The position numbers and the translations under genes were made by a program. Source: Mobula hypostoma (lineage: Eukaryota). Taken from it: a stretch of DNA of 64,000 bases. Position 1 is the stretch's first letter, and every line of letters starts with the position of its first letter. The stretch spans positions 152,832,001 to 152,896,000 of the forward strand of contig NC_086097.1 of the NCBI RefSeq assembly GCF_963921235.1, written 5' to 3'. The notes beneath the pieces were generated by a model that was given only the letters and a program-made list of their open reading frames with translations, made no database searches and was not told the DNA's origin. Below are positions 14,011 through 58,918 of the stretch, in pieces.

Positions 14011-14038
14011 CCTCCACCTCCAGGTTTCGCCTAGCCGT

Positions 14039-14135
14039 AGTCCTGACGAAGGGTCTCAGCCTGAAACATCGACTGCACCTCTTCCTAGAGATGCTGCCTG
14101 GCCTGCTGCATTCACCAGCAACTTTTATGTGTGTT
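14039..14135 (+). ncRNA. Penelope pLTR end with minimal type I hammerhead-like core (decayed)
   Basis: AGTC-CTGACGA-AGGGTCTCAGCCT-GAAAC-ATC-GACT. Stem I AGTC/GACT; the GUC triplet has become AUC. Confidence 0.65.
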
Positions 14136-24700: not shown

Positions 24701-24884
24701 CACAGCTGTGTAATGGAATACTGTGATACAAATCATTTTCTGTGCTCTGCTTTTGTGCAGTTCAATTCTGCTGTTCAGAACGAGAACCTTGGTCAGCTAG
24801 CTTCAGAAGTTATTCAATGGGTATGTAGAAAAGGTTTTAGGATATTTTTAAAGAAACATAAAGCATAAGTTATAAACCAATTAA

Positions 24885-25765
24885 ATCAATGTCGCTTACT
24901 TGGATTTTTAGTAGGGCTTTGTCAAGGTGCCACACATGAGGCTGCTTAACGAGACAAGAGCCCATAGAATTACAGGAAAGAAACACGCATGGATAGAAGA
25001 TTGGCTGAGTGGCAAGAGGCAAAGAGTAGGAATAAAGGGGGCTTTTCCTGATTGGCTCCTCGCGACTAGTGGTATTCTGCAGGCGTCAGTGTTGGGTCTG
25101 CTTCTTTTCATACTTAAGGTAAATAAACTGATGATGGAATTGATGGTCTGCGGCAATGTTTGCAGACAATACAAAGATAGGTGGGAGGGCAAGTAGAGTT
25201 CAGGAACAGGGAATCCACAACAGTGGTCCCCAGCCTCCGGGCTGTGGACTGATACTTTGCTGCGAAGAATGCAGTGGTGCAGCGGTAGTCGGAATGCACC
25301 CAGCACATCTTTAAGAAAAAAGTCAAAATAAACAAGCTAATTAATTAGGTGCCACCCGGTACGTAAATGTCGGCCCAGATCAGAGGCGATGCATTCTCTA
25401 AACTGGGAGCAATTTCAGAAATCAGAGGTGCAAAGGGAAGATTCACTAAAGGTTAATTTGCAGATTGAGATGGTGGTAAGGAAAACAAATGCAATGCTGA
25501 CATTTATTTCAAGAGGACTAGAATGTAAAGGCAAGGATGTGATGCTGAGGCTTTATATGGTATTGGTCAGACAGTACTTGGAATATCGTGACCATTTTTG
25601 GGCACCTTATCTAAGAAAGGATGTGTTGGCATTGGAAATGGTCCAGAAAAGGTTCATGAGAATGTTCCCAAGAATGAAAGGGTTAACATATCAAGAGTTT
25701 TTGATGATTCTAGGCTGGAGTTTAGAAGAATGAAGGATAATCTCATTGAAACCTAATGAATATTG
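24885..25765 (+). mobile_element. CR1 RT fragment interrupted by a hAT MITE end (~25221-25390)
   Basis: KVPHMRLL...WIEDWLSGKRQRV, SGILQASVLG, LVRQYLEY..FWAPYLRKD. Insert begins CAGTGGTCCCCAGCC (Charlie-type TIR). Confidence 0.8.
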
Positions 25766-25769
25766 AATT

Positions 25770-26587
25770 CATTTGATTCACAAAGATTCAACATTCTCTT
25801 ACCCTATGTCACCTCTTTCTATAATTCCACCTCTTACCAACAGAGCCACACCACTGCCAGTGTATTCCTGCCTGTTCTTTCAATACAAAACATATCCTTT
25901 GATGTAAAGCTCCCAACTACGGCCTTCTTTCAGCCACAACTCAGTGATGCCCACAACATCATACCGACCAATCTCTAATTACACCACAAGTTCATCCACC
26001 TTATTTCAAATGCTACGCACATTTAAATACTGCATTTTTAGTACTGCATTCTTCAACATTTTGAATTTTGCTTCTGTTGTGCAATTTAACTCTTTGCTCT
26101 GTCTGCATTTTTACCCAGTCATTGGCTTGTCCTTCCTTACATTCATGTTACACCCATCATTTATTTGTAAACCTGCTGGCTCATCCTCGGCTCTATCTTC
26201 CTGGTTCCCATCGCCCGCCATATTAGCTTAAACCACTTCCAACAGTTCTTGTAAATCTACCCGCAAGAATATTGGTACCTCTTGGATTCAAGTGCAACTC
26301 ATCATTTTTATACAAGTCACACCTGCCCCAGAAGAGGTCCCAATTATCCAGAAGTCTGAATGCCTGCCCACTGTTCCAATTCTTCAGCCACACATTTATC
26401 CGCCACCTCATTCTATTCCTTTCCTCACTGTCACGTGGCACAGGCAGCAATCCGAGATTACTCTCCTTGAGATCCTGCTTTTCAGCTTCCTTCCTAACTC
26501 CCTGTATTCTGTTTTCAGGACATCCTCCCTTTTTAAACCTCTGTCGTTGATACCAATATGTACCACGCCTTCTGGCTGTTCACCCTC
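25770..26587 (-). mobile_element. CR1 fragment (ORF1 esterase end and ORF2 start), target of the Gypsy insertion
   Basis: EGEQPEGVVHIGIND and WDLFWGRCDLYKNDELHLNPRGTNILAGRF, homologous to 38105-38815. Confidence 0.85.
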
Positions 26588-26659
26588 TGTTATGATATAC
26601 TTGTACATGCACTTGTGAGCAGACGATTAAAGTTGGTGCAAATGCGTCATTGTTTTTAT
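26588..26659 (+). mobile_element. Truncated third copy (first ~72 bp) of the Gypsy LTR
   Basis: TGTTATGATATACTTGTACATGCACTTGTGAGCAGACGATTAAAGTTGGTGC matches 31082 and 34910. Confidence 0.95.
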
Positions 26660-29600
26660 TCACTACCTTCTGGCTAAAGACATTTTTCCTCTTCTCTGTT
26701 CTAAATAGAAGTCCCTCAATTCTGAGGCTGTGCCCTTAGGTCCTAGACTCCCCTATCATTGGAAATATCCTCTCCACACCCACTCTATCTAGGGATTTCG
26801 AAACTCAATAGGTTTCAATCACCCCCTTATTCATCTAATCTCCAATGAGTACAAGCCCAGAACCATCAGATGCTCCTCATTTGTTAACCCTTTCATTCCT
26901 GGGATCATTCCTGTCAACTTCCTCTGGACCCTCTTTAATGCCAGCTTATCAGTTCTTAGATAAGGGACCCAAAACTGTTTACATTGCTCCAAGTACAGTA
27001 TTATCAATGCCTTATAGAGCCCCAGCATTTTATCCTTGCTTTTGTATTCTTTATCCTTTCAAAATGAATGCTAACATTATATTTGCCTTCCTTACTACCA
27101 AATCAACCTGCAAGTTAACTTTTAGCAAATCCTGTACAAGGACTGCTCAGTTCTTCTGCACCTCTGATTTTTGAATTTTCTCCCTGTTTGGAAAATGGAC
27201 GACACATTTATTCCTTCTGTCAAAGTGCATGACCATGCATTCCCCTACACTATATTCCACCTGCCACCTCTTTGCCCATTCCTCCAGTCTGTATAAATCC
27301 TTCTGCAGACACCCTACTTCCTCAACACCGCCGGCCCCTCCACCTATCATTCTAATGTCTGCAAACTTGGCCGCAATGCCATCAAGTCCATCATCCAAAT
27401 CACTAATATATAACATGAAAAGAAGCAGTCCCAACACCAACCCCTGCAGCCCACTACTAGTCTCCAGCAGACAACTGGAATAGGCCCTTTTATTCCCACT
27501 TTTTACCTCCTTCCAGTCAGCCAGACTTCCAGGCTAGTACCTTTCCTGTAATACCATGATCTCTTTCTTGTTAAGGAGCCTCATGTGTGGCACCTTGTTA
27601 AAAGCCATCTGATAATCCAAATAAACACCATCCATTGACACAACACACACACAAAATGCTGGAGGAACACAGCAGGTCAGACAGTATCTATAGAAAAGAG
27701 TAAAAAATCAACATTTCGGGCCAAGACCCTTTTCAGGACATCCATTAACTCCCCTTTGTCTATCCTGCCCATTATTTCCTCAAAGAATTCCAAACAAATT
27801 TGTCAGTTAAAATTTCCCCTTTAGGCCAATTGGCTTATAATTTATTTTCTTCTGTCTCCCTCCCTTCTTAAAGAGTGGAGTGACATTTGCAATTTTCCGG
27901 TCCTCCAGAACTATTTCAGGTACCTCTTTTAGTGTCCTGGAATCCATTTTTCACAGGTGACTTATTTGCCCTCAGACTTTTCAGCTTCCAAAACACCTTC
28001 TCCTTAGTAAGGGGAATACCCCCCACTGACGACACACTTACTTTTCTGGCATTCTGCTAGTGTCTTCTGCAGTAAAGACTGAGGCAAAATACTTATTCAG
28101 TTTGTTCACCATTTCTTTGTCCCCCATACTACCTCTGCAGTGTCATTTTCCAGCAGTCTGATATCCAGTCTTGTCTCCCTTTATTCTTTATGTATCCAGG
28201 TGACTGTTGAATATCATTTTTTATTGTTAAACTGTACTAATGTATTCACCTTGGTAATGCTAAAATAGCTGCCTGTGCCTTTAAGAGAAAACGATGATGT
28301 CATTTTGCATGGGTGAAGAGCTATCATGTTCTAGAAAGGATGACATTCGAATGCTTTTCCCAGGTTTGATGATCAGCACTGGATAGCCTGATTGCAAAGT
28401 TCCCTAATTGGCCTACTTGGTTAGTATTTCAACTACAAGGCAATATATTGTAAAAGTTTATTTGTCTTTGTTTAATGTTTCATGACTGAATGCAAATATA
28501 ACAGAGTAATGTGAAGATGTTCATCTCTGTTCCCGTAGTGTGAGTGAGGAGAACTCATTTCAAGCATATATGTGTTTGGAAGTTAAGCACGTGTGTGCCA
28601 AATAATTGCCACTACTGTATTGGTTTTGTATATTTTCTTTTAGTTATTTTCATACTGCATACCTAACAAGGATGTGGTCTGAAGTTAAACTGAGTTTGTA
28701 ATTGCTGGAACCGTTTTTTAAAAATTTATTTTGTCGTTTTTATTTTGATATTTATTCTGCAATAAAACATCTAAAACAGATAATGGAATTTAAGGCACAA
28801 AAAAGTATTTGTTGTCCTGCATGTGTATTTTTCCCCAGGCTACAAAATTTATATACCAGAAAAAAGAAACATTTTATATCCTGCTTTATATAATTGACTA
28901 GCAAAAAGTACTCAAGAACATACAAACGGGATTAGGTCACCTGTCCCTTAAAGCCTGTCCACCATTTCCTATGATTATGATGGATCTTTTCTGAGCCTCA
29001 ATTCTTCATCTGAGTCAATTTCCATTGGTTTTCAATCTGACAATCATTAAAAAAAACACTTGCACGTTAAATTTTAGCTTGCCTCCACAACTCTTTGAAG
29101 TAGAGAATTCCAAAGGTTCACTAACATCTGTGAGTAAAAAATTGAAAACCCCTTATCTTGAAACTATGCCCCCTTCTTCAAGACTCTCCCACTAATGATT
29201 AACCATTTACCCAGGCATGCCCCATTAGGATTTTAGCTGCTTCATTATAATTATCTCTCATTCTTCATTATGATTATCTCTGTAAAGAATGCAAATTTTT
29301 AGTCTAAAAAAGACAATCTTTTCATCTCAGGAAGGAATAAAGTCTGAAAGTATAATGTGTTTGAATTGAAGAATTCAAGAATCATAAACACCGTCCGTTA
29401 GTGTGAGGCAGTTTATTAAATAAAATTTCATCTTTTCAACTATGTTGAGTTTTCTGTCCCAGAGTTTCAGTATGAGTAGGAACTATGTAAAGGTATCCAG
29501 TCTGCCATCCATACTGCTTGAGAAAACAATAAGCCATCCAACATTTCTGGACTTCTCTCATCTGTTGTAATTAGCTTTGTCAGCGACTTGGGGCAGTATA

Positions 29601-31081
29601 TTAGTACCTTGCTGATTAGATTAGATTAGATTAGATTCAACTTTATTGTCATTGTGCCGAGTACAGATACAAAGCCAATGAAATGCATTTAGCATCTAAC
29701 CAGAAATGCAAAGGATAATGTTATTGACAAAATAACTGCAAATAAAAAGTGCTACAGCACACAAATATAAAGATACTGCAACTGTACAATATGGGTGCAA
29801 TACTGCTTAGCGCTGTGATGAGAGGTTCAGTAGGGTCACAGCCTCAGGGAAGAAGCTCTTCCTCTGCCTGCTGGTGCGGGAGTGGAGGCTCCTGTAGTGC
29901 CTACCGGATGGGAGGAGAGTAAAAAGTCCATGGTTAAGGTGAGATGCATCGTGGGCAATTGGGTGCCAATAATCTGCTGGGCAGTTTTCACCACATGCTG
30001 GAGTGTTTTGTGCTCCGATACAGGACAATTGCCATACCACACTGAGATGCAGTTGGTGAGTATGCTCTCAATGGTACAGCAGTAAAAGTCTGTCAGTATC
30101 CTGGGACAGAGGTGAGCTTTCTTGATTCTCCACAGGAAATAAAGACGCCGTTGTGCCTTTTTGATCAGGATGGAGGAGTTCAGGGACCAGGTGAGATCCT
30201 CGGAAATGTGGACACCAAGGAGTTTGAAGCTTGATACAGGCTCCACTATAGCTCCGTGAATGTAGATGGGGACGTGAGTGTGACTCCTGGCATGCCTTTA
30301 GTCCACAATGATCTCCTTGGTCTTCTGGGTGTTAACGGCCAGGTTGTTGTCAGCACAGCACACAGCCAGGTGCTGGACCTCATCCCTGTAGGCCGTCTCG
30401 TGTACCCAACTGATCAGGCCAACCACCGTGGTGCACTCTGCGAACTTGATTATGAATATAGAACCATGTACAGGAACGCAGTCATAGCTGAAAAGGGAGC
30501 ACAGAAGAGGGCTCAGCACACAGCCTTGAGGCATGCCAGTGTTCAGGGTGAGAGTGGAGGAGGAGAGATTGTCTAACTTAACTGATTGGGGTCTGTTAGA
30601 TGTCAAAAAAGATGTCAAACCAAATTATAGCAGGATTAAAGAACAAATGAAACAGTCTCTGTCAACTTAAAAAAAGCATAGGACAAAGTTCAGAGTTCAA
30701 AAGGTTTGTAGTAAATTTTACTATCATAGTACATATATGTCACCATATACAACCCTGAGATTTATTTTCTTGGAGGCATGTTCGATAAATCTATAAAATA
30801 ATAACCATAACAGAATGAAAGGAAGTCTGCCCAACTCGGGCATTCAACCAGTGTGCAGCAGACAATAAACTGTGCTGCTACAAAAGAAGAAATAATAATA
30901 ATAATAAATAATAAGCAATAAATATTAAGAACATGAGATGAAGAGTCCTTGAGAGTGAGTCCATTAGTTGTGCGAACATTTCAATAATGAGGCAAATGAA
31001 GTTGAGTGAAGTTATCCCCTTGGTTAAAAAAGCCTGAGGGGTAGTAACTGTTCTTGAGTCGGATGATATGTGAGTCCTATG
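26658..31081 (-). repeat. Left arm (derived copy) of ~4.4-kb inverted segmental duplication
   Basis: Reverse complement of 50226-54378 plus 57609-57937, including non-TE spacer (e.g. 28441-28920 vs 52350-52835). Paired ORFs 27147-27440(-) / 53841-54218(+). Confidence 0.97.
29615..30605 (-). mobile_element. 5'-truncated Rex/Babar LINE (within left arm)
   Basis: NTGMPQGCVLSPLL, KTKEIIVD, FKLLGVHISEDLTW. (TTAGA)n tail at 29616-29636. Confidence 0.9.
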
Positions 31082-34000
31082 TGTTATGATATACTTGTAC
31101 ATGCACTCGTGAGCAGACGATTAAAGTTGGTGCGCATCTGCCGTTGTTTTTTTCTGAGGTATCTGTCTCAAAACATGGTGGCAACGGTGGGACTCGGAAA
31201 ATTGCTTCTTTTCAACCGCAGCGCCCAATTTTTCCAACCTGCAGTTGGCAGTATAATAATAGTGCTACTCTGAAACATCAGAGGGTGAGTGTAAGAGTAG
31301 AAGAATGTCGACCGAGATGAGCAACCAGCCACAAATAGGGACGGGTGCAGTAGCAATGCCTGGAGGTGAGACAGCAGAATCTCAGCGGCATCCAGCACCT
31401 GCAGGTGACCCCGTGCCGGAGAACCATGGTCAGGCAGAAGTCCTCCCCCAGTCAGTGGCATCCGTCTGCCACTGGCCATGACGGTCAACCACGGAATAAT
31501 AGATCGATGGAAGACATGGCGCAGATGTGGACTAAATGCAGCGTCATAGCACAACTGCACAAACAAGTTCCAGCATACCAGACAGCATTATTTTTACATA
31601 CAATTGGACCATCAGGACTTGAGGTCTACAACAGCTTTGTGTTCGCAGATGAGGCTGAAGGCCAAGACCTCACAAAGATTTTAGCTGCATTTGACAGATA
31701 TGCTATCGGTGAGAAAACTGAGACATATGAATGGTACTTGTTCAGCAAGCGGCAACAAGAACAAGGTGAGACCTTTGAATCGTTTCTTGCCAGCCTTAGA
31801 TCTCTTGTAAAGACATGTAATTTTTGCTCATGTATGTCAGACAGTCTGCTGAGAGACAAGATCATACTGGGCACTAATGACTCCCAAACCAGGAAATGTC
31901 TGTTACAAGAGAGAAAGATATCGCTCAGTGACTGCATTGACATCTGTAAAAGCACAGAAATGGCTGAATCACACCTACAAGCATTCAGTACAGCTGCAGA
32001 TAGCAGGTCCGCTACTGTCCATGGGATTAAACCTCGCACTAACAAGAAAGATTCAAAGCATCCTGGACAGAAGGCTAGTGCTAGTGGTGGAGCCAGAGCA
32101 AAAGGCACCTTGAACAGCCACAGAAGCAAAGTGAACCCTTGCAAGTACTGTGGCACGAGACATACAAGAGACAAGCATACGGACAGGTATGCAAGGTGTG
32201 TGGTATTGGAAATCACTTTGCAAAGGTATGCAAGCAGGAGCCCGTGCATGGGGTGGAAGCACAGAGCGATGACCAAGCCGACAGTGACAGCAGCACTGAG
32301 TTTATCGACAATGTCACACTGGTGGTCAACAGTTTGAAGACAAAGAATGACGTATTCGCACAGATGCTCATCAATGGAAAGCCAATAGACTTCCAATTCG
32401 ACAGCAGGGCGAGCATTAATATTTTACACCACAAATACTTGGAGGGAGTAGCTCACACACTAAGACAATGCATAAAAAAGCTGATGATGTAGAACAAGGC
32501 CACCATGGATGCAGAAGGGATGTGTAGAGTGAAATTGCGTAACCCCATGATGAACGACAAGTATTCTGTCAAATTTGCCGTGGTCACTAATGACTTTACG
32601 CTATTGCTGGGAAGCAGGGTCAGCCCGCAAATGAAGCTGAGGGTGCATAGATCTACACTTAAAGAAAAACAATGCACCCCAGAAGAACGCTATGCAGAGG
32701 AGTTTGATGATGCGCTCGGGGAGCTTCCATGTGTAGCCCACCTGCAGATTGATGAGGAAGTTCAACCCACAGTGTTACCCCCAATTCTAAGGAAGAGCTA
32801 ACCATCCACTGTGACGCCAGCAACAAAGGCCTAGGGGCAGCACTCCTCCAGAATGGACATCGGATCGCATATGCAAGCAGAGTGCTAACGGACACAGAAA
32901 GGCGTTATGAAGCGATTAAAAAGGAAATGCTCGTAATCGTTTTCGCACTTGAGCATTTTCATCAATATACTTTTGACTGCTTCACAAGAGTACTCAGCGA
33001 TCACAAGCCACTCAAAATGATGGTTAAGAAGCACCAACACACCTACAGGGAATGCTTCTTCGCTTGCAGAGCTATGACTTCGACATCACTTACTGTCAAG
33101 GAAAGCTCATGCACATTGCGGATACACTATCGCGAGCAGTTAGTGGTACTCCAGGCCAAGAGAACAGCTTTGACGAAGTCAACATGCTATCGCACCTGCC
33201 AATCGGCGATAAACGTCTGGAGCAGATTCGCATAGAAACAGCGAAAGATGACACTCTATAAGTGTTGAAACGTGTAATCTTCAGTGGATGGCCGAGCGAA
33301 CATGCCATGCTATCAGAGCAACTTACACCTTACTATAGCTATAGGGACAAGCTCGCAGTCCAAGCTGACTTAATCTTCAAAGGTGAGCGTGTCATCATAG
33401 CGCAAAGTGAGCGAAAGCAAATGAAGGAAAGAATTCATGTGTCACACTAAGGCATAGAAGGATGCCGCAGATGCGCACACGAATGTCATTTTTGGCTGGG
33501 CATGAGCAGCAACATCAAGCAATATATTGCTACATGTGATATTTGTCGCACATACGAAATGAGTCAGCTGAAAGAGTCGCCTATGAGTCATGATGTACCT
33601 GCTCGGCTGTGGGAAAAGATAGATGCTGACCTGTTTACATTCGAAGGAAATGAGTACCTCGTCACCGCTGATTACTACAGCAAATTCTTCGAGGTAGATC
33701 TTTTTTGTGATACGACCAGCGCAGCCATTATTCACAATTTGAAGGCTCATTTTGCGAGATATGGTAGCCCAACACAAATGGTTAGTGATAATGGGCCACA
33801 ATGCATGTCAGCGGAGTTTCACAGATTTGCACGAGAATGGGATTTTGAGCATTTGGGTAGCAGCACTCGAATGGAAAAGCTGAATCAGCAGTTAAAACAG
33901 CTAAGTGGATCCTCACAAAGAGCAACAAATCGCGAGCAGATCCCTACCTCGCATTTCTCGACCATCGCAACACACCCTCGCAAGGGCTCAGCACAAGTCC

Positions 34001-35003
34001 TACCCAGCGTTTGATGAATGGCCGCACACGCACGCTCCTGCCTACAACAGCGAGTTTACAGGAACCCAGAGTTGTACATGACCGCGAGCGTATGAAACGA
34101 CGCGTCCAGCAGCAGGCCGACAATTACAACAAATCAGCCAAAGATCTTGCCCCACTCGACGAAGGGGATACCGTGCGCATGTAACCTCTGGTGCAAGATA
34201 AAGAGAATTGGGAGAAAGCAATTGTGTGTTGGCGCCTTGATGAGCGTTTATATGTAGTTCAAAACCCTTCTGCGATCTACCGACGTAATCGCACACATCT
34301 AAGAAAGACGGCCGAGGAACCACCTGAAAAGCTAATCACATATGAACAGGCTAAACTAGGTCAAACAACTGAGATCAATGACCACAGTGCGCCTACCACA
34401 TCAAATGCACACAGCCAAACATTAGCAGAGGCTAATGACACAACACAAACACTAACACAAACGTTGAAACATGCAAATAACAAACACCAGGATTCGGACA
34501 AAATAGTAAAAACTCATTCTAGCCGCACAGTGAAAAGGCCACAATATCTAGAAGACTCTGTCCCACATTGAACAATTGCATGAGTAATTGAACAATAATT
34601 CTGTGACACTATTTGGCATTTTAATGTCATGTTTACACTCAGAGAAGGACCATGTCCTATTTGAGGTTGTGTAGCTTGTAGTTGAAGTTAAAGTTGAATT
34701 TTAGTATGTTTTATATTTTGTTTATATGCTTATACAAACAGAAATAATGAGTGGTATGTATTTGTGACAGGCATAAGAGACATAAGGCATGATTAATGAA
34801 TGCTTTGAAAGTTAATTCCATGAAAACACACTGGAAAGCAGACTTCAGAGAAATTGAGTTTAATTGTTAATATAATTGTTCCTTTTCCTTGTTTTGATAA
34901 AAAGGGGGATGTTATGATTTACTTGTACATGCACTCGTGAGCAGACGATTAAAGTTGGTGCGCATGCGCTGTTGTTCTTATCTGAAATACCTGTCTTGAA
35001 ACA
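31082..35003 (+). mobile_element. Ty3/Gypsy LTR retrotransposon with 94-bp LTRs, decayed, RT deleted
   Basis: LTRs 31082-31175 and 34910-35003 (TG...CA). PBS TGGTGGCAACGGTGGGAC at 31176 resembles the tRNA-Leu 3' complement; PPT AAAAAGGGGGA lies before 34910. Domain order gag, protease, RNase H, integrase. Confidence 0.95.
31500..34571 (+). pseudogene. Gypsy gag-pol remnants (frameshifted)
   Basis: Gag: RQQEQGETFESFLASLRSLVKTCNF and zinc knuckle CKVCGIGNHFAKVC. Protease: FQFDSRASINIL. RNase H: HCDASNKGLGAALLQ, SDHKPL. Integrase: CDIC, ADLF..DYYSKF, VSDNGPQ. Confidence 0.9.
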
Positions 35004-36064
35004 TCCTCCCTTAAAAAACAACATAGAAAATTTGTAGTATATTTTGTTGATAACATATAAACAAAGACTTTAATTTATATAATGCAGTTATGATTTCAGC
35101 ATATTTCAAAACATTTCAAAATCAGTGAATTGCAATATAGTTATTGTTGCGTAGGAAGCGGCAGTCAATTTAGACAGACTATCTACCTCACTCTTCTCTG
35201 TCACTTTATTGCCATCCAAGGTTTTATCAACAAGTGTCATCTGTCAAGTTATAAATGACTGCTTGAGCTCCACCTAAGCACACCATCATGAGTATAGAGA
35301 GCGTAGATTAGTGGGCTAAACATGAATCTTTGAGCTGCTCCTATGTTGATTGCCAGTGAAGAGGAGATGTTATTATTGATCCTCACTGACTGTGGTCTCC
35401 TATTAAGGAAGCTAAGGATCCAGTTGCAGAGAACAATACAGAGGCCCAGGCTTCAAACTTTAGTGATTATTACTGAGGGATGATGATAATGTTGAAAATT
35501 GAACTGCAGTTGATAAACAGTAGAATGACATAAGGTAACCTCTTTCCATTAGTTCACTTCACTCACTCCTTCTGAAATTTCACTTCTGCTGAAAATTTTT
35601 TGGAGGTGAAATGCAACAGTACAGCAAAAAATATTGAGGAATGCTTTGGGACAATAAGGCTCAGACATCTTGCTTAATGAGAATAGTTCTGATGTAGACC
35701 CATGGGTTAAAATCACTGTTGATATCCTATCATGGAACACGTATAAGATGGAAATAAATTCACTAAGACGGGACATTGATGGGATCAGCAATCATCAACC
35801 AAAGCAGTCACAATATTGCATGCATGGTTTTCTGAGGCAAATACCTAAGGCTCTACTGAGAACTCTCCTGTAGTATTCTGCACAAGTCTCATCTCCCAGT
35901 TTATAGATGATACCCATGTTAGCAGATTTATCACAAGGCTTGGCTGATTGGGTCTTGGCAGAGTGGATTCACAGAGAATGAGAGATAAAGTTGACTGTAT
36001 TATTGCCCTCTAATATTTAGAAAAATCAGGGGTGATTTCACTCAAACCAACCTCCATGCCATTC

Positions 36065-36455
36065 ACTCCAATTGCAATTCCTGCTGCCTAAGGAAAGATG
36101 TGGAAATAATTAAGTCATTCCTTCTCTGGTCATTCACTCTCCTCTCTTCTCCCATCAGGCAGAAAATACAAAGGCCTGAGAGCACAAAGCCACCAGGTTC
36201 AAGAACAATTTCCATCCCACTATCCTCAGACTCTTGAATGCAGCTTCTATACATTAGAAATGAACACTTGATCTCCCAGTATACCCCATTGTGACACTTC
36301 CAATTTATTTGACTTAACTTTTTTTTCTAACCATAATACTGTATTCTACATTATTTTTACTACTTCAGTATAATTATATATGGCATGATCTGTCTTGATG
36401 ACATTCAGAACAAAAGCTTTTCACTGTATCTCAATACATGTGACAATCATAAACT
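36065..36455 (+). mobile_element. Rex/Babar LINE 3' fragment
   Basis: CCATCAGGCAGAAAATACAAAGG...CCAGGTTCAAGAACAATTTC (LPSGRRY..RFKNSF region) and tail ACATGTGACAATCATAAA. Confidence 0.65.
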
Positions 36456-37874
36456 AGTATTACTAGTGGAAAGTTTTTCAGCCAGATGGTATTGAAACTT
36501 TGGAAATTCACTACTTGGGAGGTCTGTGTTGGTTCAATTCTTCAAATAAACTCAATATGGAGATCAGTAGGTATTTAAATATTAAGAATATTAAATATTA
36601 AAATGGTGTTGGTGCTGAAGAGAATGATCAGTACCAATCTTTTTGAATGTGCTGGTGGAATGAGGGGCTGAATGTCCAACTCTTGATTTCACTTCTTATG
36701 TTGTTTTTTCCAATGTGGAGTAGATTATAGTGTTCAGTATGTTCCAAACACAATTTAAAACAATGTATTTAATATTATACTCAAATAAGACAGGGAAGAC
36801 TGTGCCATTTGGGAAATATTATTTATTTTGTAGTTTCTGGTGTGGAACTTTTTTTCTAATGTGTGTACCATTCTGTATGGAGCAAATTGAAAACAACAGG
36901 AGCTATTTTACGAATGTATACACTTGATGGGAGCTCTGCCTTTAAAGAACACAACTCAACAAATTGTTACTATGTGATCATGCAAGTTTCTATCCATTCG
37001 GTGGAAATTCATGGTGAGCACTATCACAGTTTTTCAATAGGAACTCCTGGTAGGCAGGAGCCTTCTGCCAGGAGTCCATAATTGTGAGTCTCTTGTATTT
37101 AACGCCAAACAGCTGATTTCTTTCTCTTACTCTGTTTCTCAACTTCACTGAAGCTGAAGATTAACTTGCTACCAATTAATTGGCAAGTTGTAATCTTCAG
37201 ATTAACGACAACTGTCAAAACACAGACTGCAGTGCAGTGAGAGAACACTGACTGAAATGCACTTCTCATTGTTGCACTAAGCAAAATTTGAGGTTCTTCC
37301 ATAACCATGGCAACTGGGACAATATATCTGCTTAGATGATATTATGAAAGAGGTGGATAATTGAAATTAGCTCTGTGGTTTGTAGTCATTTGTAAAAGGG
37401 CTACGTTTTGTCAGTGATTAATGTATTAGTGCATTTTGTATCAAAAATATTAATCTAGAAATAGCTTAAGAGGAAAAGAAATGATACAATGTTGTCTTAC
37501 CTTACAGATAAGCACTTAGAAATGCATATAAAAATAGCCAAAATTTCTTTTGTATCATATTTTGTGTCCATGGCTCTTAGAGGGGCTAATGATCTCCATA
37601 TTGATAAGCATTTTTAATTTCATATTTTTAATATTTTTATAATTGACCTTATATCAATATGAAAAGATAAAGACCCTCTTCGCACCGTGTTTGGTATATC
37701 TGGCAGCAAGCTTGCCTTTTCTTTAATGTTTGTCTATTTTACAAGGCTGAGTTGCTAACTTGGAGCTCAACCTGCATGAGTGGGCCAGTGAAGGAGTGGA
37801 GCTTCGAGGCTTTGACTCGAGAGGCTTCGACAAGAAGAGGCGGAGGACGAGCTTGTTCCCAGTTAGTTTTTACA

Positions 37875-42994: not shown

Positions 42995-43148
42995 AACATA
43001 GAAACATAGAAAATAGGTGCAGTAGGTCATTCTGCCCTTCGAGCCTGCACCGCCATTCAGTATGATCATGGCTGATCATCCAACTCAGAACCCTGTACCA
43101 GCCTTCCCTCCATACCCCCGATCCCTTTAGCCACAAAAGCCATATCTC
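42995..43148 (-). mobile_element. CR1 3'-end fragment inserted in the BEL leader
   Basis: AACATAGAAACATAGAAAATAGGTGC is a reversed CR1-type (TTCTATGT)n tail and 3' UTR. Confidence 0.75.
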
Positions 43149-43182
43149 ACCAAGAGAGAGCAACGTTTACCAGCGCAGGAAA

Positions 43183-44010: not shown

Positions 44011-44011
44011 T

Positions 44012-49944: not shown

Positions 49945-50610
49945 GATTTTTTGAAGATTCAGCATGACATCTAAAGCTTAATCAAACTTCTATAGATATG
50001 TAGTGGACTACACATTTGACTAACTGCATCACAGCCTGGTGTGGAAAGAACAATGCCCTTGAATGGAAAAAAAACTTACATAAAGTAGTGGATATAGCTC
50101 AGTTCATCATGGGTAAAGCCCTCACAAGAAACATTGTTGCAGGAAAACAGCATCCATCAATAGGGAACCACCACCCAGGTCATGCTCTCTTCTTGCTGCA
50201 GCCATCAGAAAGGAGGTACAGGAGCCACAGGACTCATACATCACCTGGTTCAAGAACAGTTACTAACCCTCAGGCTTTTAAACCGAAGGGATAACTTCAC
50301 TCAACTTCACTTGCCTCATTATTGAAATGTTCGCACAACCAATGGACTCACTCTCAAGGACTCTTCATCTCATGTTCTTAATACTCATTGCTTATTATTT
50401 ATTATTATTATTTCTTCTTTAGCAGCACAGTTTGTTGTCTGCTGCATACTGATTGAATGCTCAAGTTGGGCAGACTTTCTTTGATTTTGTTATGATTATT
50501 ATTTTATAGATTTATTGAACATGCCTCCAAGAAAATAAATCTCAGGGTTGTATATGGTGACATATATGTACTTTGATAATAAAATTTATTTCAAACCTTT
50601 TGAACTCTGA
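49945..50610 (+). mobile_element. Rex/Babar LINE 3' fragment; donor-arm boundary falls inside it at 50226
   Basis: TNCITAWCG...HHPGHALFLLQPSERRYRS. Confidence 0.8.
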
Positions 50611-50681
50611 CCATTGTCCAATGCTTTTTTTAGGTTGACACAGACTGTTTCATTTGTTCTTTAATCCTGCTATAATTTGGT

Positions 50682-51641
50682 TTGACATCTAACAGACCCC
50701 AATCAGTTAAGTTATACAACCTCTCCTCCTCCACTCTCACCCTGAACACTGGCATGCCTCAAGGCTGTGTGCTGAGCCCTCTTCTGTACTCCCTTTTCAC
50801 CTATGACTGCATTTCTGTACATGGTTCTAACTCCATAATCAAGTTCGCAGATGATACCATGGTAGTTGGCCTGATCAGAGGGGATGACGAGACCAAGGAG
50901 ATCATTGTGGACTTCAGGCATGCTAGGAGCCACACTCAGGTCCCCATCTACATCAACGGAGCTGTAGTGGAGCGTGTATCAAGCTTCAAATTCCTTGGTG
51001 TCCACATTTCTGAGGATCTCACCCGATCTCTGAACTCCTCCATCCTGATCAAAAAGGCGCAACAGTGCGTTTATTTCCTGCGGATCATCAAAAAAGCTCA
51101 CCTCTGTCTCAGGATACTGGCGGACTTTTACCGCTGTACCATTGAGAGCATTCTCAGCTGCATCTCAGTGTGGTATGGCAATTGTCCCGTATCGGACTGC
51201 AAAACACTCCAGCGTGTGGTGAAAACTGCCCAGCATATTATTGGCACCCAATTGCCCACCATTGAGAACATCTACCATAAATGCTGCCTGGGCAGGGCGA
51301 AAAGTATTATCAAGGATGCATCTCACCCTAACCATGGACTTTTTACTCTCCTCCCATCCGGTAGGCGCTACAGGAGCCTTCGCTCCCACACCAGCAGGCA
51401 CAGGAAGAGCTTCTTCCCTCAGGCTGCGACCCTACTGAAACTCTCATCACAGCGCTAAGCAGTATTGTACCCATATTGTACTGTCTCAGTACTTTTATAT
51501 TTGTGTACCGTAGCACTTTTTCTTTGCAGTTATTTTGTAAATAACATTATTCTTTGCATTTCTGGTTAGATGTTAACTGCATTTCAATGTCTTTGTATCT
51601 GTACTCGGCACAATGACAATAAAGTTAAATCTAATCTAATC
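50682..51641 (+). mobile_element. 5'-truncated Rex/Babar LINE
   Basis: 258-aa ORF with GMPQGCVLSPLLYSLFT and KFADD. Tail ATGACAATAAAGTTAAATCTAATCTAATC. Confidence 0.92.
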
Positions 51642-54378
51642 AGCAAAGTATTAGTATGCTGCCCCAAATCTCTGCAAAGCTAATTACAACAGATGAGAGA
51701 AGTCCAGAAATATTGGATGGCTTACTGTTTTCTCAAGCAGTATAGATGGATACCTTTACAGTTCCTTCCCATACTGAAACTCAGGGACAGAAAACTCAAC
51801 ATAGTTGAAGAGCTGAAATTTTATTTAATAAACAGCCTCACATGAATGGACGGTGTTTGTGAATCTTGAATTCTTCAATTCAAACACATTATACTTTCAG
51901 ACTTCATTTTTTTTCTGAGATGCATTCTTTACAGAGATAATCATAATGAAGAATGAGAGATAATCATAAGGAAGAATGAGAGATAATCATAATGAAGCAG
52001 TTAAAATCCTAATGGGGCATGCCTGGGTAAATAGTTAATCATTAGTGGGAGAGCCTTGGAGAAGGGGGCATAGTTTCAAGATAAGGGGCTTTCAATTTTT
52101 TTTATTTAAAACTGAAGCACGGGATGGTTTACACACAGATGCTAGTGAACCTTTGGAATTCTCCACTTCAGAGAGTCGTGGAGGCAAGCTAAAATTTAAT
52201 GTGCAAGTAGATATATTTTTTAATGATTGTCAGATTGAAAACCAATGGAAATTGACTCAGAAGAAGAATTGAGTCTTAGGGAAGATCAGTCATAATCATA
52301 CAAAATGGTGGACAGTCTTCAAGGGATGGGTGACCTAATCCTGTTTGTATGTTCTTGAGTACTTTTTGCGAGTTAATTATATAAAGCAGGATATAAAATG
52401 TTTCTTTTTTCTGTTATATAATTTTGTAGCCTGGGGAAAAATACACATGCAGGACAACAAATACTTTTTTGTGCCTTAAATTCCATTATCTGTTTTAGAT
52501 GTTTTATTGCAGAATGAATATCAAAATAAAAATAAGAAAATAAATTTTAATAAAAAACAGTTCCCACTATTACAATTTCAGTTTTAACTTCAGACCACAC
52601 CCTTGTTATGTATGCAGTACGAAAATAACTAAAACAAAATATACAAAACCAATACAGTGTGCCAATTATTTGGCACACACGTGCTTAACTTCCAAACACA
52701 TATAGTTGTGAAATGAGTTCTCCTCACTCACACTTCATGAACAGAGATGAACATATTCACATTACTCTGCTACATTCACATTCGGTCATGAAACATTAAA
52801 CAAAGACAAATAAACTTTTACAATATATTGCCTTGTAGTTGAATTACTAACCTAGTAGGTCAATTAGTGAGCTTTGCAATCAGGCCATCCAGTGCTGATA
52901 AATTTACTTGCGAAAATCTTTCCTTACCAAACCTGGGAAAAACATTCAAATGTCGTCCTTTCTAGAACCTAGTAACTCTTCGTTCTACTCCACCCATGCA
53001 AAATGACATCACTGTTTTCTCTTAAAGGTACAGTTAGCTATTTTAGCATTACCAAGGTGAATACATTAGTATGGTTTAACAATAAAAAATGATATTCAAC
53101 AGTCACCTGGATACATAAAAAATAAAGGGAGACAAGACTGGATATCAGACTGCTGGAAAATGACACTGCAGAGGTAGTGTGGGGGACAAAGAAATGGTGA
53201 ACAAACTGAATAAGTATTTTGCCTCAGTCTTTACTGCAGAAGACACTAGCAGAATGCCAGAAAAGTAAGTGTGTCGGGGGCGGGGGTATTGCCCTTACTA
53301 AGGAGAAGGTGTTTTGGAAGCTGAAAAGTCTGAAGGCAAATAAGTCACCTGTGAAAAATGGATTCCAGGACACTAAAAGAGGTACCTGAAGAGATTATGG
53401 AGGTATTAGTAACGATCTTTAAAAAAGCACTGGATTCTGGAATAGTTCTGGAGGACCGGAAAATTGCAAATGTCACTCCACTCTTTAAGAAGGGAGGGAG
53501 ACAGAAGAAAATAAATTATAAGCCAATTGGCCGGCTTTCCTAAAGGGGAAATCTTAACTGACAAATCTGTTTGGAATTCTTTGAGGACATAATAGGCAGG
53601 ATAGACAAAGGGGAGTTAATAGATGTCCTGAAAAGGGTCTTGGCATGAAATATTGATTTTTTACTCTTTTCTATAGATACTGTCTGACCTGCTGAGTTCC
53701 TCCAGTATTTTGTGTGTTTGCTGTGTCAGTGGATGGTGTTTATTTGGATTTTCAGATGGCCTTTAACAAGGAGCCACACATGAGGCTTCTTAACAAGATA
53801 AGAGATCATGGTATTACAGGAAAGGTACTAGCCTGGAAGTTTGACTGACTGGAAGGAGGTAAAAAGTGGGAATAAAAGGGCCTATTCCGGTTGTCTGCTG
53901 GAGACTAGTGGTGGGCTGCAGGGGTTGGTGTTGGGACTGCTTCTTTTCATGTTATATATCAGTGATTTGGATGATGGACTTAATGGCATTGCGGCCAAGT
54001 TTACAGACATTAGAATGATAGGTGGAGGGGCCGGTGGTGTTGAGGAAGTAGTTTGTCTGCAGAAGGATTTATACAGACTGGAGGAATGGGCAAAGAGGTG
54101 GCAGGTAGAATATAGTATAGGGGAATGCATGGTCATGCACTTTGACAGAAGGAATAAATGTGTCGTCCATTTTCCAAACAGGGAGAAAATTCAAAAATCA
54201 GAGGTGCAAAAGAACTGAGCAGTCCTTGTACAGGATTTGCTAAAGGTTAACTTGCAGGTTGATTTGGTAGTAAGGAAGGCAAATATAATGTTAGCATTCA
54301 CTTTGAAAGAATAAAGAATACAAAAGCAAGGATAAAATGCTGAGGCTCTACAAGGCATTGATAATACTGTACTTGGAG

Positions 54379-57300
54379 ACCTACAGTTATTAGTAATAAC
54401 AGTAACAATAAGAGCTTTATATATCATTCTAATCCAATTATTAAAATTAACACCAAAGCCAAATTTCTCTAAAACATTAGATAGATATTTCCATTCGACT
54501 CGATCAAACACTTTATCAGCATCCAAAGAGATGATGCATTTGGAGTTTTAAAAGATGATGAATATATGATGTTAAATAGTCTCCGAACATTTGAAAAAGA
54601 GTAATGACCCTTTATGAAACCTGTCTGATCTTTAAAAATAATTTTTCCCAAAATATTCTCCAACCGATTGGCCATTATCTTTGACAGAATCTTAGCATCA
54701 ATGTTCAATTGTGAAATAGGTCTCAGTGAGGCACATTCAGTAGAATCTTTATCCTTTTTAAGAATTAAGGAGATAGAAGCCTCATAGACATCTCTCCTTT
54801 TTTTCAGCTTTCACAGGGGAAAAGACTAGGCTGTCCATTAAGTACTTTGTTATTTAATTTAATATTAGAACCCCTTGCTATTGCTCTCCGTGAAGCTAAA
54901 AATATTTATGGGATTTCTGTGTCTGAGACCATACATAAGATTTCTCTTTATGCAGATGATTTATTGGTTTATATATCAAATCCTGAGGAATCTATTCCTG
55001 CCTTGTTAAAATTATTTAATGAATTTGGAGTTTTCAGGATATAAAATAACTTTTGGTAAAAGTGAATTGTTTCCTATAAATGAATCCGTTTCTATGTATG
55101 ACAATACTCCTTTCAAAGTCACAGATTCTTTTAGTTATTTAGGTGTCACAATCACTAAAAAAATATAAGGATCTTTATAAAGCCAGTTTTGTTCCTTTTG
55201 TTAGACTCTATGAAATATTTATTTAGTAGACGGAGTCCACTTACATTTTCACTTGTTGGTCGCATGCATACAGTCAAAATGATGATTCTACCAAAATTTT
55301 TATATCTATTTCAGAATATCGCTTTTTTTTTGACTAAGAAGTTTTTGACCGGATTGATTCTATTATTTTATCTTTTATCTGGAATAATAAAAGACCAAGA
55401 ATTTGTAAATGTCATTTACAAAAGTTGAAAAAGGATGGAGGTCTCGCTTTGCCTAATTTAAGAATGTATTACTGGGCTGTTAATGTGTGATACATGTCCT
55501 TTTGGTTATACTGGGTTGATAAGAAGGATCGGCCTATCTGGGTAGATTTGGAATTGAAAGCTGTGAAACAGTTTTATTTAACTTTGTTATTGGGAGCTGA
55601 TTTGCCTATACAATTAGCTAAAGTTGCTAATTTAAACTTTTATCCTGTGATTAAGCACTCTTTACAAACTTGGCTTCAGTTCCGCAATTTTTTTAATCTT
55701 AAAAAATTTAAGCTTTGTAGTTTAATTTATCAAAACTACCTTTTTAAGCCTTCTTTGAGTGATCCAATTTTTTTACTTTGGAAAAATAAAGGTATTAATT
55801 CTTTTTTTGGATTTATTTAAAGAAGGCAGATTGATGTCCTTTGAACAATTAGTTGATAAATATTCTCTTTCATACTCACACTTTTTACAATATCTCCAAC
55901 TTAGACATTTCTTACAAAAAAATTTGAGAATTTTCCTTACATATTGGATGCTGACCTGTTGGATAGTATAATGAGTATGAACCCTTCGATGAAGGGTTCC
56001 ATTGGAAGAATTTATAATTTACTATTACAATGGGTGAGCGTCCTTTATTTAAGATTAAACAAGATGTGGAAAAGGAACTCAATTTGACTTTTACGATGGA
56101 AGATTGGATGCAGATTCTGAAGCTGGTTAACTCTTATTCGATCTGTGCTAGTCATTCACTGATTCAATTTAAAATTGTACATAGTTACCACTTGACGAAG
56201 GAGAGATTGTCTAAAATATTTTCTAATGTTGATAGTTACTGTGATGTAAAACTGAGACAGCTACAATTACACACTTTTTGGTCTTGCTCGATACTGGAAC
56301 AGCTCTGGAAGTCAGTTTTTTTGACAATTTCTAAAGCACTTCAAATTAATTTACAACCTAACAAATTAACTGTGCTTTTTGGAATAATTCTTCAAAATAT
56401 GGAGAAGATGGCGGTGCGACGGCAGCGTGTGCGGCCTCTCCGGTGATGAATATCTGTTATCTGTCAAGTAGGGGACCGTGTGCAATTCTGATTTGATGGA
56501 GACAGACGTGACTGCATAGCGGAACATTTGGAAATCTTCTGAAATGACTGCTTTGCTACCACTGCTACTGTGTGGTAACCGGAATCTCTGGAGCTGTAGG
56601 CCTCGAAATCCTCGGCTTTGCCTGTTTCAGAGGCCGGGGAGAGGTCGAAGGCGCTCAGCAGAGGATGCCGCTCGGGAGGCTGTATTGAAGAGGCTGCTCA
56701 GAAGCTCGGAGTTTTCAGACTGATGGACTCAGGGTTGGCTGGGGTCGGCTGCTTCCAAGGTATCGGCAAGTTGACGGTGCCTGGAGGTTTTATGGCAGGG
56801 AGTTTCTGCCTTTTGCCGCCGCTATTGGGGACTCAGGAGTCGATCGACTCGGGGACTTTGAGACATTTTTTTTACTGTGCCTATGGACTGTTCTTCATCA
56901 AATTATGGTATTGCTTGCATTGCTGTAACTATATTTATAATTATGTGGTTCTGTCTGTTTTAGTCTTTGATCTGTCTTGTTTTCTGTGATATCACGCCAG
57001 AGAAACATTGTATCATTTCTTAATGCATGTATGCATTTCTAAATGACAATAAAAGAGGACTGAGTGTTCTCATAATCTAAAATATTCATGGTATCTCTGT
57101 GTCTGACCAACATGTTATTGCATTTGTTACATTGATAGCAAGGAGAGCCATTTTGTTGAAGTGGAAGGATACAACGGCTCCCACTTTGTCACAATGGTTC
57201 TCTCAAGTGATGCTATGTCTTAGTTTGGAGAAAATTAGAAGTCGAACCTTTGAACCTATGTTTGATTTTGAGAAAATATGGGGTTCATTTGCTCATTATT

Positions 57301-57589
57301 ATCATTTGAGTTAATTGATGGATTCTCCACTATCTAATTGTAAATTTTTTTGGTACTTTTTTTGATTCTGGAGGTTTGATGTTTATCTTTAGAAGCTTTA
57401 TGTATGACGCATGGCTCTGGGGTTGAACACCTGATGGGATTTTTTCTTTTTTCCCACTTTTCTTGCTTAGTAGGGTTTCTTTTCATCACAAAATTTTTTC
57501 AATCTTTATATAATTTTTTTCTTGAGACATTGTAAGTGTTGTTTACTTTGATGTACTCATGTTTTTTTTGGGAAAAAAAGATTTGAAAA
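54379..57589 (+). mobile_element. L1-clade LINE, 5'-truncated with 5' inversion
   Basis: 19-bp TSD GATAATACTGTACTTGGAG (54360-54378, 57590-57608). Minus part 54379-~54788: NIDAKILSKIMANRL, DADKVFDRVEW. Plus part from ~54793: GCPLS.LLFNL.LEPLA, LYADD, KMMILPKFLYLFQ, HTFWSC. Confidence 0.95.
56401..57078 (+). mobile_element. ~680-bp non-autonomous retroelement nested in L1
   Basis: 7-bp TSD AAAATAT (56394-56400, 57079-57085); removing it restores L1 frame LQNIHGISVSDQH. GC-rich head GGAGAAGATGGCGG; tail ATGACAATAAAA...TAATCT. Confidence 0.85.
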
Positions 57590-58036
57590 GATAATACTGT
57601 ACTTGGAGTAGTGTAAACAGTTTTGGGTCCCTTATCTAAGAACTGATAAGCTGGCATTAGAGAGGGTCCAGAGGAAGTTGACAAGAATGCTCCCAGAAAT
57701 GAAAGGATTAACAAATGAGGAGCGACTGATGGTTCTGGGCTTGTACTCACTGGAGATTAGATGAATGAGGGAGTGATTGAAACATGTCAAGTATTGAAAG
57801 GCCTAGATAGAGTGGGTGTAGAGAGGATGTTTCCAATGGTAGGGGAGTCTAGGACCTAAGGGCACAGCCTCAGAATTGAGGGACATCTATTTAGAACAGA
57901 GACGAGGAAAAATGTCTTTAGCCAGAGGGTGGTTAATCTGTGGAATTTATTACCACAGATAGCTGAGCAGGCTAAGTCATGGGTATATTGAAAATGGAGG
58001 TTGATAGGTTCTTGATTAATCAGAGTGTCAAAGGTT

Positions 58037-58624: not shown

Positions 58625-58918
58625 TCAAAGGTTATGGTTTGAAGGCTGGAGAATGGGGTTGAGGGGGTTAATAAATCAGACATGATGGAATTGTTGAGCA
58701 GACTCGATATGCTGAATGGCCTAATTCTGTTTCTATGTCTTCTGGTCTTATGGTCTATTGAATATTTCAGCTGTGTGCGTGTGTAAAATGAATGCTTGAC
58801 TCAGGCATTGCTGCTGGTTGAAAAGCTGACTAACCACTTACTATCTACACGAGGAGGCATACAAAAGTGAGATAGATCAGCTGATCGAGAGGTGTCAGAA
58901 CAACAATCATGCACTCAA

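What the first reader, a model, noticed from the sequence alone, without database searches (positions are those of the whole stretch)
26588..35008. Three-LTR Gypsy composite enclosing a 4.4-kb inverted copy of DNA from ~20 kb downstream
Seen: the order is CCTC | LTR nt 1-72 (26588-26659) | inverted copy of 50226-57937 (26658-31081) | full LTR (31082-31175) | gag-pol | LTR (34910-35003) | TCCTC. The inner LTR has no TSD partner at 35004, whereas the outer flanks match (CCCTC/TCCTC) and rejoin as CACCCTCCCTTAA, plausible CR1 ORF1 sequence. The copied DNA abuts the inner LTR exactly at its terminal TG, like an integrase-made joint. Its other end joins mid-LTR with only ~2-3 nt of microhomology, like a repair joint. 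Inference: an LTR end engaged a second nearby site and repair or re-replication copied the adjacent host DNA. This would be a retro-integrase analogue of the composite insertions made by alternative transposition of DNA transposons. Alternatives are ectopic LTR-LTR conversion from an allele with an insertion at 50226, or template switching.
Basis: partly seen in the sequence, partly recalled or inferred. Interest (0 to 1): 0.85.

Follow-up and report, generated by a model that had tools for sequence, protein, structure and literature searches.

The report
Retrotransposon insertion patched with neighbouring DNA
A dead jumping gene carries a third, partial copy of its own end and a 4.4-kb backwards copy of nearby chromosome DNA, likely pasted in by the cell's own repair machinery while the insertion was being sealed, so it is likely a rare old accident of a known kind rather than a new way of jumping.

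Summary
The anatomy is real. The order is LTR nt 1-72, an inverted copy of 50226-57937 (minus a later 3.2-kb LINE), a full LTR, a decayed Gypsy gag-pol, and an LTR, bounded by CCCTC/TCCTC (4 of 5; chance about 0.014). The donor is intact at both ends and carries no LTR. The LTRs differ by 11-12% and the arms by 8.9% outside a later conversion tract (3.5%), which fits one old event. A second species carries the copy arm and the right junction. The two inner junctions were not seen bridged, and no empty site was found. A fresh insertion has a strand break exactly at LTR nt 1, so a template switch during repair or replication (out to the nearby donor, back into the LTR at nt 72 on 2 bp of microhomology) gives the whole structure from one integration (about 50%). 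Rivals are a second integrase attack (20%) and repair from a lost neighbouring allele (17%). It works like aberrant retroviral integration plus repair-mediated duplication. It fails the membership test for maize composite insertions. Verdict: new variant of a known kind, interest 0.35.

The parts
26190..26587 (-). Left flank: old CR1 ORF1 (esterase-type) fragment, the host target of the insertion
   Evidence: 73% match to the window's CR1 ORF1 at 38449-38849; translation begins EGEQPE; that paralogue hits Lipase_GDSL_2
26583..26587 (+). Left copy of the 5-bp target-site duplication (CCCTC)
   Evidence: 4 of 5 match to 35004-35008
26588..26659 (+). LTR-A, nt 1-72 of the 94-bp LTR; ends past the poly(A) signal (nt 39)
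   Evidence: 8 of 72 differences to each full LTR
26658..26659 (+). Junction J1: 2-bp microhomology (AT) shared by LTR nt 71-72 and donor 57936-57937
26658..31081 (-). Inverted copy (4.4 kb) of the donor 50226-54378 plus 57609-57937; made of old CR1 and Rex1-like pieces and AT-rich DNA, no host exon seen
   Evidence: 309 of 4291 sites differ; LINE-type ORFs
26911..28271 (.). Tract of low divergence between copy and donor (likely later gene conversion between the inverted arms)
   Evidence: 47 of 1357 versus 262 of 2934 differences, Fisher p = 1e-11; 0 of 1000 permutations reach it; holds without CpG sites
31081..31082 (.). Junction J2: donor position 50226 joined flush to LTR nt 1, no microhomology
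31082..31175 (+). LTR-B, full 94 bp, 5' LTR of the coding unit
31176..31193 (+). Primer-binding site, starting TGG directly after the LTR's CA (tRNA-Leu type, identity recalled)
31354..34570 (+). Decayed gag, protease-like, RNase H and integrase frames; RT domain missing; at least 9 stop-free segments needed to tile it
   Evidence: (RT_RNaseH 2e-24, rve 3.7e-6, Integrase_H2C2 4.6e-5); gag and protease by motif only, no Pfam hit
34899..34909 (+). Polypurine tract directly before the 3' LTR
34910..35003 (+). LTR-C, full 94 bp, 3' LTR
   Evidence: 11 of 94 differences to LTR-B
35004..35008 (+). Right copy of the target-site duplication (TCCTC)
   Evidence: LTR-C/flank joint bridged by one contig in each of two organisms (records 6 and 21)
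50226..57937 (+). Donor of the copied DNA; continuous with its neighbours at both ends, no LTR
   Evidence: LINE tail runs through 50225/50226 like two other window copies; CR1 frame runs through 57937; no LTR or Gypsy match here
54379..57608 (+). LINE (L1/Tx1-like, clade recalled from motifs) that entered the donor after the duplication; 19-bp TSD 54360-54378 / 57590-57608; 5' part inverted
   Evidence: RVT_1 profile 2-55 on the minus strand, 116-175 on the plus strand

Best explanation
This is a decayed Gypsy retrotransposon bounded by a near-perfect 5-bp duplication and holding an extra 72-bp LTR piece and an inverted 4.4-kb copy of nearby DNA, likely made in one normal integration whose left end was then mis-repaired by a host template switch. 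Steps: (1) Integrase joined both ends of one cDNA at 26587/35004 with a 5-bp stagger (TSD shown; empty site not seen). (2) Such an intermediate has a strand gap exactly at LTR nt 1 (established chemistry). A replication fork or gap-filling polymerase meeting it would leave a broken end flush with nt 1 (inferred). (3) Host synthesis bridged the break using the opposite strand of DNA 4-15 kb away as template, copying 4.4 kb (the copy, its direction and the intact donor are shown; the process is inferred). (4) The bridge rejoined the element's own LTR at nt 72 on 2 bp of microhomology, so nt 1-72 were copied twice (joint shown; route inferred). Whether synthesis began at J2 or at J1 cannot be told. 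(5) Later the arms exchanged a 1.4-kb tract, a LINE entered the donor, and all parts decayed (patterns shown; order inferred). The structure has no function of its own that I could detect.
For: It needs one integration and one repair accident. It accounts for the outer TSD, the flush joint at nt 1, the duplicated nt 1-72 with 2-bp microhomology, the nearness of the donor and the empty donor site. Ages fit one event: LTR pairs differ by 8 of 72, 8 of 72 and 11 of 94 and the arms by 262 of 2934 outside the tract (Fisher p = 0.36). The element differs from high-depth family contigs of another organism at 96 of 1535 sites (6.3% per lineage). The three LTRs are star-like (5, 3 and 3 private differences in 72 nt), with no sign of two parents. 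Precedent: host polymerases extend LTR 3' ends on nearby host or viral templates and can append several templates (PMC5041404, Discussion); 12 of 67 aberrant HIV proviruses have both LTRs normal beside host changes over 30 bp, and 6 of 67 list a chromosome inversion. Proximal repair-mediated duplications are common in vertebrates (PMC2671141).
Against: No sequence feature separates it from the rivals; all give the same four junctions. J2 has no microhomology, which template switches usually, though not always, show. None of the 67 rows describes a third LTR inside a normal TSD. The copy (4.4 kb) is longer than any proximal duplication of Pace et al. (maximum 619 bp; distant class 3,424 bp). 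The 72-94-bp LTRs date loosely (95% interval 6-20%). The TSD is 4 of 5, the family's TSD length was not measured, and no empty site was recovered.
Confidence: 0.5

Rival explanations
1. Second integrase attack in the same cell. Two U3 ends were joined by integrase, one at 26587/26588 and one at 50225/50226, for example by two cDNAs synapsed crosswise on sister chromatids or by re-use of an end. The resulting broken chromatids were fused at LTR nt 72 / 57937.
For: J2 is flush with TG and has no microhomology, as integrase joints are. Linked integrase complexes would explain nearness. The shape matches maize composite insertions: element ends outside, a TSD, and one end-joining seam with 0-9 bp of homology (PMC4270019).
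Against: It needs two U3 ends at once plus two breaks and a fusion. No element or scar is at the donor. My searches found no retro-integrase case. A single integration already predicts a flush end.
Confidence: 0.2
2. One-sided ectopic repair from a second, ordinary insertion at 50225/50226 on another allele that was later lost. A break in the first element was repaired on the second, synthesis ran through its LTR into 4.4 kb of flank, and the end was joined to LTR nt 72.
For: Every step is ordinary and all four junctions follow. An earlier, unchecked note describes a similar scar between two CR1 copies 8 kb apart in this genome (e1-9193144).
Against: It needs two insertions within 15 kb in one animal. 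With about 30-35 related copies (rough depth ratio) the chance per insertion is 0.0003, and 0.01 even at 1000 copies, assuming a 3-Gb genome. The LTRs show no excess A=C over B, though 72 nt has little power. The donor is empty in this haplotype.
Confidence: 0.17
3. Reverse-transcriptase template switching: a read-in transcript from a parent element at 50226 was copied into a composite cDNA that integrated as a unit.
For: One TSD around three LTRs is the signature of such complexes (PMC1950507).
Against: Those complexes have two internal domains and complete outer LTRs; here the first unit is host DNA and LTR-A is partial. The route needs a parent at 50226 (absent), would put the extended end on both sides, and gives no reason to land 15 kb from the donor. 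LTR-A runs about 30 nt past the poly(A) signal, probably into U5.
Confidence: 0.05
4. A later break unrelated to integration, or two unrelated insertions, with the flush joint and the TSD-like flanks arising by chance.
For: Repair duplications arise at all times. The TSD is imperfect and CR1 continuity is short. LTR dating is loose.
Against: It needs a joint exactly at LTR nt 1 by chance, and in the two-insertion form also a 4 of 5 flank match (0.014). Ages agree.
Confidence: 0.05
5. Assembly artefact.
For: J1 and J2 were not bridged by any listed contig (one search showed 32 of 561,856 pieces).
Against: The arms differ by 7.2% with many private indels. A second organism holds copy-arm sequence at 8 differences in 628 and the right junction.
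Confidence: 0.03

Closest known systems
Aberrant retroviral integrations repaired by host polymerases (HIV-1, Varadarajan et al. 2016, PMC5041404, parts 1-4 of 6 and Tables S1-S4 read; XMRV clone C-3, PMC2857682, passages read)
   Same: An LTR end joined to displaced or inverted nearby host DNA; host synthesis from an LTR 3' end over host and viral templates; kilobase local duplications; intact LTR ends possible at the abnormal joint.
   Different: There one end fails and the normal TSD is lost. Here both outer ends look normal with a 5-bp TSD and the extra DNA lies inside, between a partial and a full LTR. This one is a fixed germline fossil of a Gypsy element, without drug or mutant integrase.
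Repair-mediated duplications of vertebrates (Pace et al. 2009, PMC2671141, parts 1-3 of 8 and passages read)
   Same: Nearby chromosomal DNA copied into a TE, donor left intact, short microhomology, no poly(A).
   Different: 4.4 kb against at most 619 bp for proximal cases; a 72-bp target repeat against 4-21 nt; one joint exactly at an LTR end, which ties it to integration.
Composite insertions from Ac/Ds alternative transposition (Zhang et al. 2014, PMC4270019, part 1 of 7 and passages read)
   Same: Element ends outside, one TSD, duplicated local DNA inside, one end-joining seam with short microhomology.
   Different: These need two pre-existing element ends and a cut-and-paste transposase, and they copy the DNA flanking the donor elements. 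Here the donor has no element and the enzyme is a retro-integrase.
Three-LTR complex insertions by RT template switching (Sabot and Schulman 2007, PMC1950507, part 1 of 2 read)
   Same: Three LTRs inside one TSD.
   Different: Two internal domains and complete outer LTRs there; here host DNA fills the first unit and the first LTR is partial.
Mag-lineage Ty3/Gypsy elements (Culex survey, PMC3286476, passages and Table 1 excerpt read)
   Same: Short LTRs, mostly 5-bp TSD, Leu or Ser PBS, no env seen.
   Different: The LTR here is shorter (94 bp against 119-304 in that table), RT is missing, and the clade was not tested by a tree.

Membership tests
Ty3/Gypsy LTR retrotransposon | Direct LTRs with TG...CA ends, PBS and PPT | tested here: met
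Ty3/Gypsy LTR retrotransposon | RNase H before integrase in pol | tested here: met
   RT_RNaseH at 32756-33235, Integrase_H2C2 and rve at 33451-34014
Ty3/Gypsy LTR retrotransposon | RT domain between protease and RNase H | tested here: not met
   No RVT hit in the 9 Gypsy frames scanned. A family contig in run X16 runs on unlike after 32783 (record 12), so RT was probably deleted from this copy.
Mag lineage | Placement in the Mag clade on an RT or integrase tree | not tested
Short LTR, 5-bp TSD and Leu-type PBS fit the table (tRNA identity recalled).
Maize-type composite insertion | Bordered by element termini and flanked by one TSD | tested here: met
   (4 of 5)
Maize-type composite insertion | Internal end-joining seam with little or no homology | tested here: met
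   2 bp at J1; 0-9 bp in maize
Maize-type composite insertion | Pre-existing element ends at the donor, next to the DNA that was copied | tested here: not met
   The donor is continuous and has no LTR in this haplotype; other haplotypes were not seen
Maize-type composite insertion | Cut-and-paste transposase acting on two elements | tested here: not met
   The element is a retrotransposon
One-ended aberrant retroviral integration | An LTR end joined to copied or inverted nearby host DNA | tested here: met
   J2
One-ended aberrant retroviral integration | Loss of the normal short TSD | tested here: not met
   A 4 of 5 match bounds the whole composite
Repair-mediated duplication (Pace et al.) | Single intact donor on the same chromosome, within 5 kb | tested here: inconclusive
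   15.2 kb now; 11.1 kb without the young-looking CR1; 4.4 kb without the BEL element too. BEL is not shown to be younger (p = 0.06, more disrupted frames).
Repair-mediated duplication (Pace et al.) | Microhomology, filler or deletion at the joints and no poly(A) | tested here: met
   2 bp at J1, none at J2, no poly(A) at either
Repair-mediated duplication (Pace et al.) | Empty orthologous site in an outgroup | tested here: inconclusive
   No contig of 4 runs covered 34980-35039
RT template-switch complex (Sabot and Schulman) | Two internal domains and complete outer LTRs | tested here: not met
   One internal domain; LTR-A is 72 of 94 nt

The most novel reading that the evidence does not exclude
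A retrotransposon integrase can perform alternative transposition: two cDNAs synapsed crosswise, or one re-used LTR end, attack two sites kilobases apart on replicating chromatids, and repair leaves a TSD-bounded composite that duplicates local DNA. This would be the retro-element counterpart of maize composite insertions and a route from LTR insertions to local inverted duplications in vertebrate germ lines.
Probability: 0.2. Interest if true: 0.7.

Novelty: new variant of a known kind. Interest (0 to 1): 0.35.

Why it matters
It is a clean natural fossil showing that an LTR insertion can keep a normal-looking TSD and still duplicate kilobases of neighbouring DNA in inverted orientation. Such cases would be missed or misread by two-LTR finders and by junction-only sequencing of integration sites. 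The inverted arms then exchange sequence (the 1.4-kb tract), so the event leaves a lasting recombination substrate. As a single, old, gene-free case it does not decide between mechanisms. A genome-wide count of the same architecture would, and would test whether retro-integrases can do alternative transposition.

Tried and rejected
Whole genome: none is held for this window, so no genome-wide LTR count, family TSD length or search for further composites was possible. Empty-site test: four runs of organisms C, G and D laid on 34980-35330 gave no cover at 34980-35039 and only short repeat matches elsewhere; a hole proves nothing. Laying four runs on 23500-37500 at 85% was swamped by repeats: 32 of 561,856 pieces were shown, none bridging J1 or J2. 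A CR1 pattern in metagenome contigs, an LTR pattern and an integrase query in viral contigs and a protein search for CR1 ORF1 relatives found nothing, so the CR1 continuation could not be checked against same-family copies. Rfam found nothing in 26000-60000, and the LTR does not fold better than shuffles (z 0.53). No longer homology between LTR and donor lies at either joint (longest exact match within 100 bp is 6-8 nt and not at the joints). The first alignment mis-set the last bin across the LINE; its overall 11% arm divergence is discarded in favour. A 3.2-kb deletion in the copy was rejected: the extra donor DNA has its own 19-bp TSD. CpG decay does not explain the low-divergence tract (2.9% against 7.2% without CpG sites). 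Paper searches with no hit; searches listed nothing matching this architecture (listings only). PMC12312487 (passages) reports alternative transposition for VANDAL21 DNA transposons only, in what I read. The library lacks most subscription papers, so absence from print is not shown.
Full report
Observation. A self-comparison of the window finds three copies of one 94-bp LTR and no more: 26588-26659 (nt 1-72, LTR-A), 31082-31175 (LTR-B) and 34910-35003 (LTR-C). LTR-B is followed at once by a primer-binding site and LTR-C is preceded by a polypurine tract. Between them lie decayed frames with RNase H, zinc-finger and integrase-core hits in Gypsy order, and no RT hit. Gag and protease are recognised by motif only. 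Short LTRs, a 5-bp TSD and a Leu-type PBS (tRNA identity recalled) fit the Mag lineage as tabulated in PMC3286476, but I built no tree. The stretch 26658-31081 is an inverted copy of 57937..50226.

Direction of copying. The downstream stretch is the donor. A LINE tail runs through 50225/50226 as in two other window copies, and a CR1 frame runs through 57937 and aligns with the window's long CR1. No LTR or Gypsy sequence lies at the donor. The 3.2 kb missing from the copy is a later LINE insertion in the donor, with a 19-bp TSD and an inverted 5' part. So the copied DNA was about 4.5 kb of old repeats and AT-rich sequence; I saw no host exon in it.

Junctions. There are four. Left flank to LTR-A and LTR-C to right flank are flush with the LTR ends and carry CCCTC and TCCTC; a match of 4 of 5 or better has chance 0.014. 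Read on the minus strand, the right flank gives FLR and the left flank EGEQPE, against ILVREGKQPE in the window's other CR1. This is weak support only, because the CR1 ends within a few bases of the site. J2 (31081/31082) is flush with LTR nt 1 and has no microhomology; J1 shares 2 bp at LTR nt 71-72.

Reality and age. The arms differ at 309 of 4291 sites with many private indels, which a collapsed or duplicated assembly would not give. One contig of organism A (possibly the assembled sample) and one of organism B bridge the LTR-C junction, and B holds copy-arm sequence at 8 differences in 628, where copy and donor differ by 7-12%. J1 and J2 were not bridged by any of the 32 pieces listed of 561,856. 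Four runs of more distant organisms did not cover the right junction, so no empty site was seen. LTR pairs differ by 8 of 72, 8 of 72 and 11 of 94. The arms differ by 262 of 2934 (8.9%) outside a tract at 26911-28271 that differs by only 47 of 1357 (3.5%; p = 1e-11). LTR and arm divergence are compatible (p = 0.36), and the element is 6.3% from high-depth family contigs of organism G. One old event fits, older than the A-B split (1.9% in the flanks), but short LTRs date loosely. The tract is best read as later gene conversion between the inverted arms; it extends about 75 bp past the LINE site, weakly suggesting the LINE came later still.

Mechanism. That is possible but not needed. In a normal integration each cDNA 3' end is joined to one target strand and the other strand has a gap at the element's first base until the host repairs it (established; described in PMC5041404 and PMC2857682). 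A fork or gap-filling polymerase meeting that gap would give a broken end flush with LTR nt 1 (inference). If host synthesis then bridges the break on the opposite strand of nearby DNA and returns to the element's own LTR 72 nt behind the point of departure, the product is TSD, LTR nt 1-72, inverted copy, full LTR, internal part, LTR, TSD, with an untouched donor. Varadarajan et al. propose this kind of host synthesis from LTR ends over nearby host and viral templates. In their tables 18 of 67 aberrant proviruses have both LTRs normal, 12 of these beside host changes over 30 bp, and 6 of 67 list an inversion (my counts); none of the 67 shows a third LTR within a normal TSD. I give this route 0.5. 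Against it: J2 has no microhomology, and the copy is far longer than the proximal repair duplications of Pace et al. (maximum 619 bp).

Rivals. A second integrase attack (two cDNAs synapsed crosswise on sister chromatids, then breakage and fusion) gives the same junctions, explains the lack of microhomology at J2, and is the true analogue of maize composite insertions. It needs more coincident steps and I found no precedent in the searches made: 0.2. One-sided repair from a second insertion on a lost allele uses only ordinary steps but needs two insertions within 15 kb, a chance of 0.0003-0.01 per insertion for 30-1000 copies in an assumed 3-Gb genome (the copy estimate of about 30-35 comes from contig depth and is rough): 0.17. 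RT template switching does not explain nearness or the empty donor: 0.05. Chance coincidence 0.05; artefact 0.03. The donor lies 15.2 kb from the site now, and lay 11.1 kb away if the young-looking CR1 came later, or 4.4 kb if the BEL element did too; the BEL element is not shown to be younger.

Comparison and verdict. It works like aberrant retroviral integration combined with repair-mediated duplication. It is not a member of the maize composite insertions (no element at the donor, no transposase), of the Sabot-Schulman complexes (one internal domain, partial outer LTR), or of strict one-ended integrations (the TSD is kept). The combination of a kept TSD, a third LTR piece and a multi-kilobase inverted local copy was not found in the 10 paper searches run, in a library that lacks most subscription journals. 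Earlier unchecked notes list related accidents in the same genome (e1-9289184, e1-9234914, e1-9193144), so such scars may be common there. New variant of a known kind; interest 0.35. The bold reading, alternative transposition by a retro-integrase, keeps probability 0.2 and would deserve 0.7.

Noticed in passing
window 26911-28271 versus 53035-54378 and 57610-57684: Sharp low-divergence tract (3.5% against 8.9%) between the inverted arms, likely gene conversion long after the duplication; it crosses the site where the LINE later sits.
   Followed up: yes
window 54379-57608: LINE insertion with a 19-bp TSD whose 5' RT part is inverted relative to the rest (twin-priming-like), with what looks like another insert at about 56400-57080.
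   Followed up: partly
window 42134-48838: BEL/Pao-type LTR element (DUF5641 hit) with a CAATT TSD, LTRs 43 of 647 apart, and a nested insert at about 44010-45240 with inverted terminal parts.
   Followed up: partly
window 37690-41830: Near full-length CR1 with an esterase-type ORF1 and a 680-codon open ORF2 stretch; few disruptions, so it looks young.
   Followed up: partly
window 58916-59135: Head-to-head inverted pair of a short repeat (176 bp palindrome, 91%) also found at 14038-14135 and 44013-44148.
   Followed up: no
window 62569-63130: Tandem array with 60-68-bp units, open as a 197-codon repetitive frame on the plus strand.
   Followed up: no
window 26567-26576 and 26667-26676: The same 10-mer occurs in the CR1 flank before LTR-A and in the copy just after J1, 100 bp apart; probably chance, not tested.
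   Followed up: no
run X16 (organism G), records 11-14: Long high-depth contigs of this Gypsy family (depth 162-215 against about 9 for single-copy DNA) suggest a recent burst of near-identical copies in that organism.
   Followed up: no
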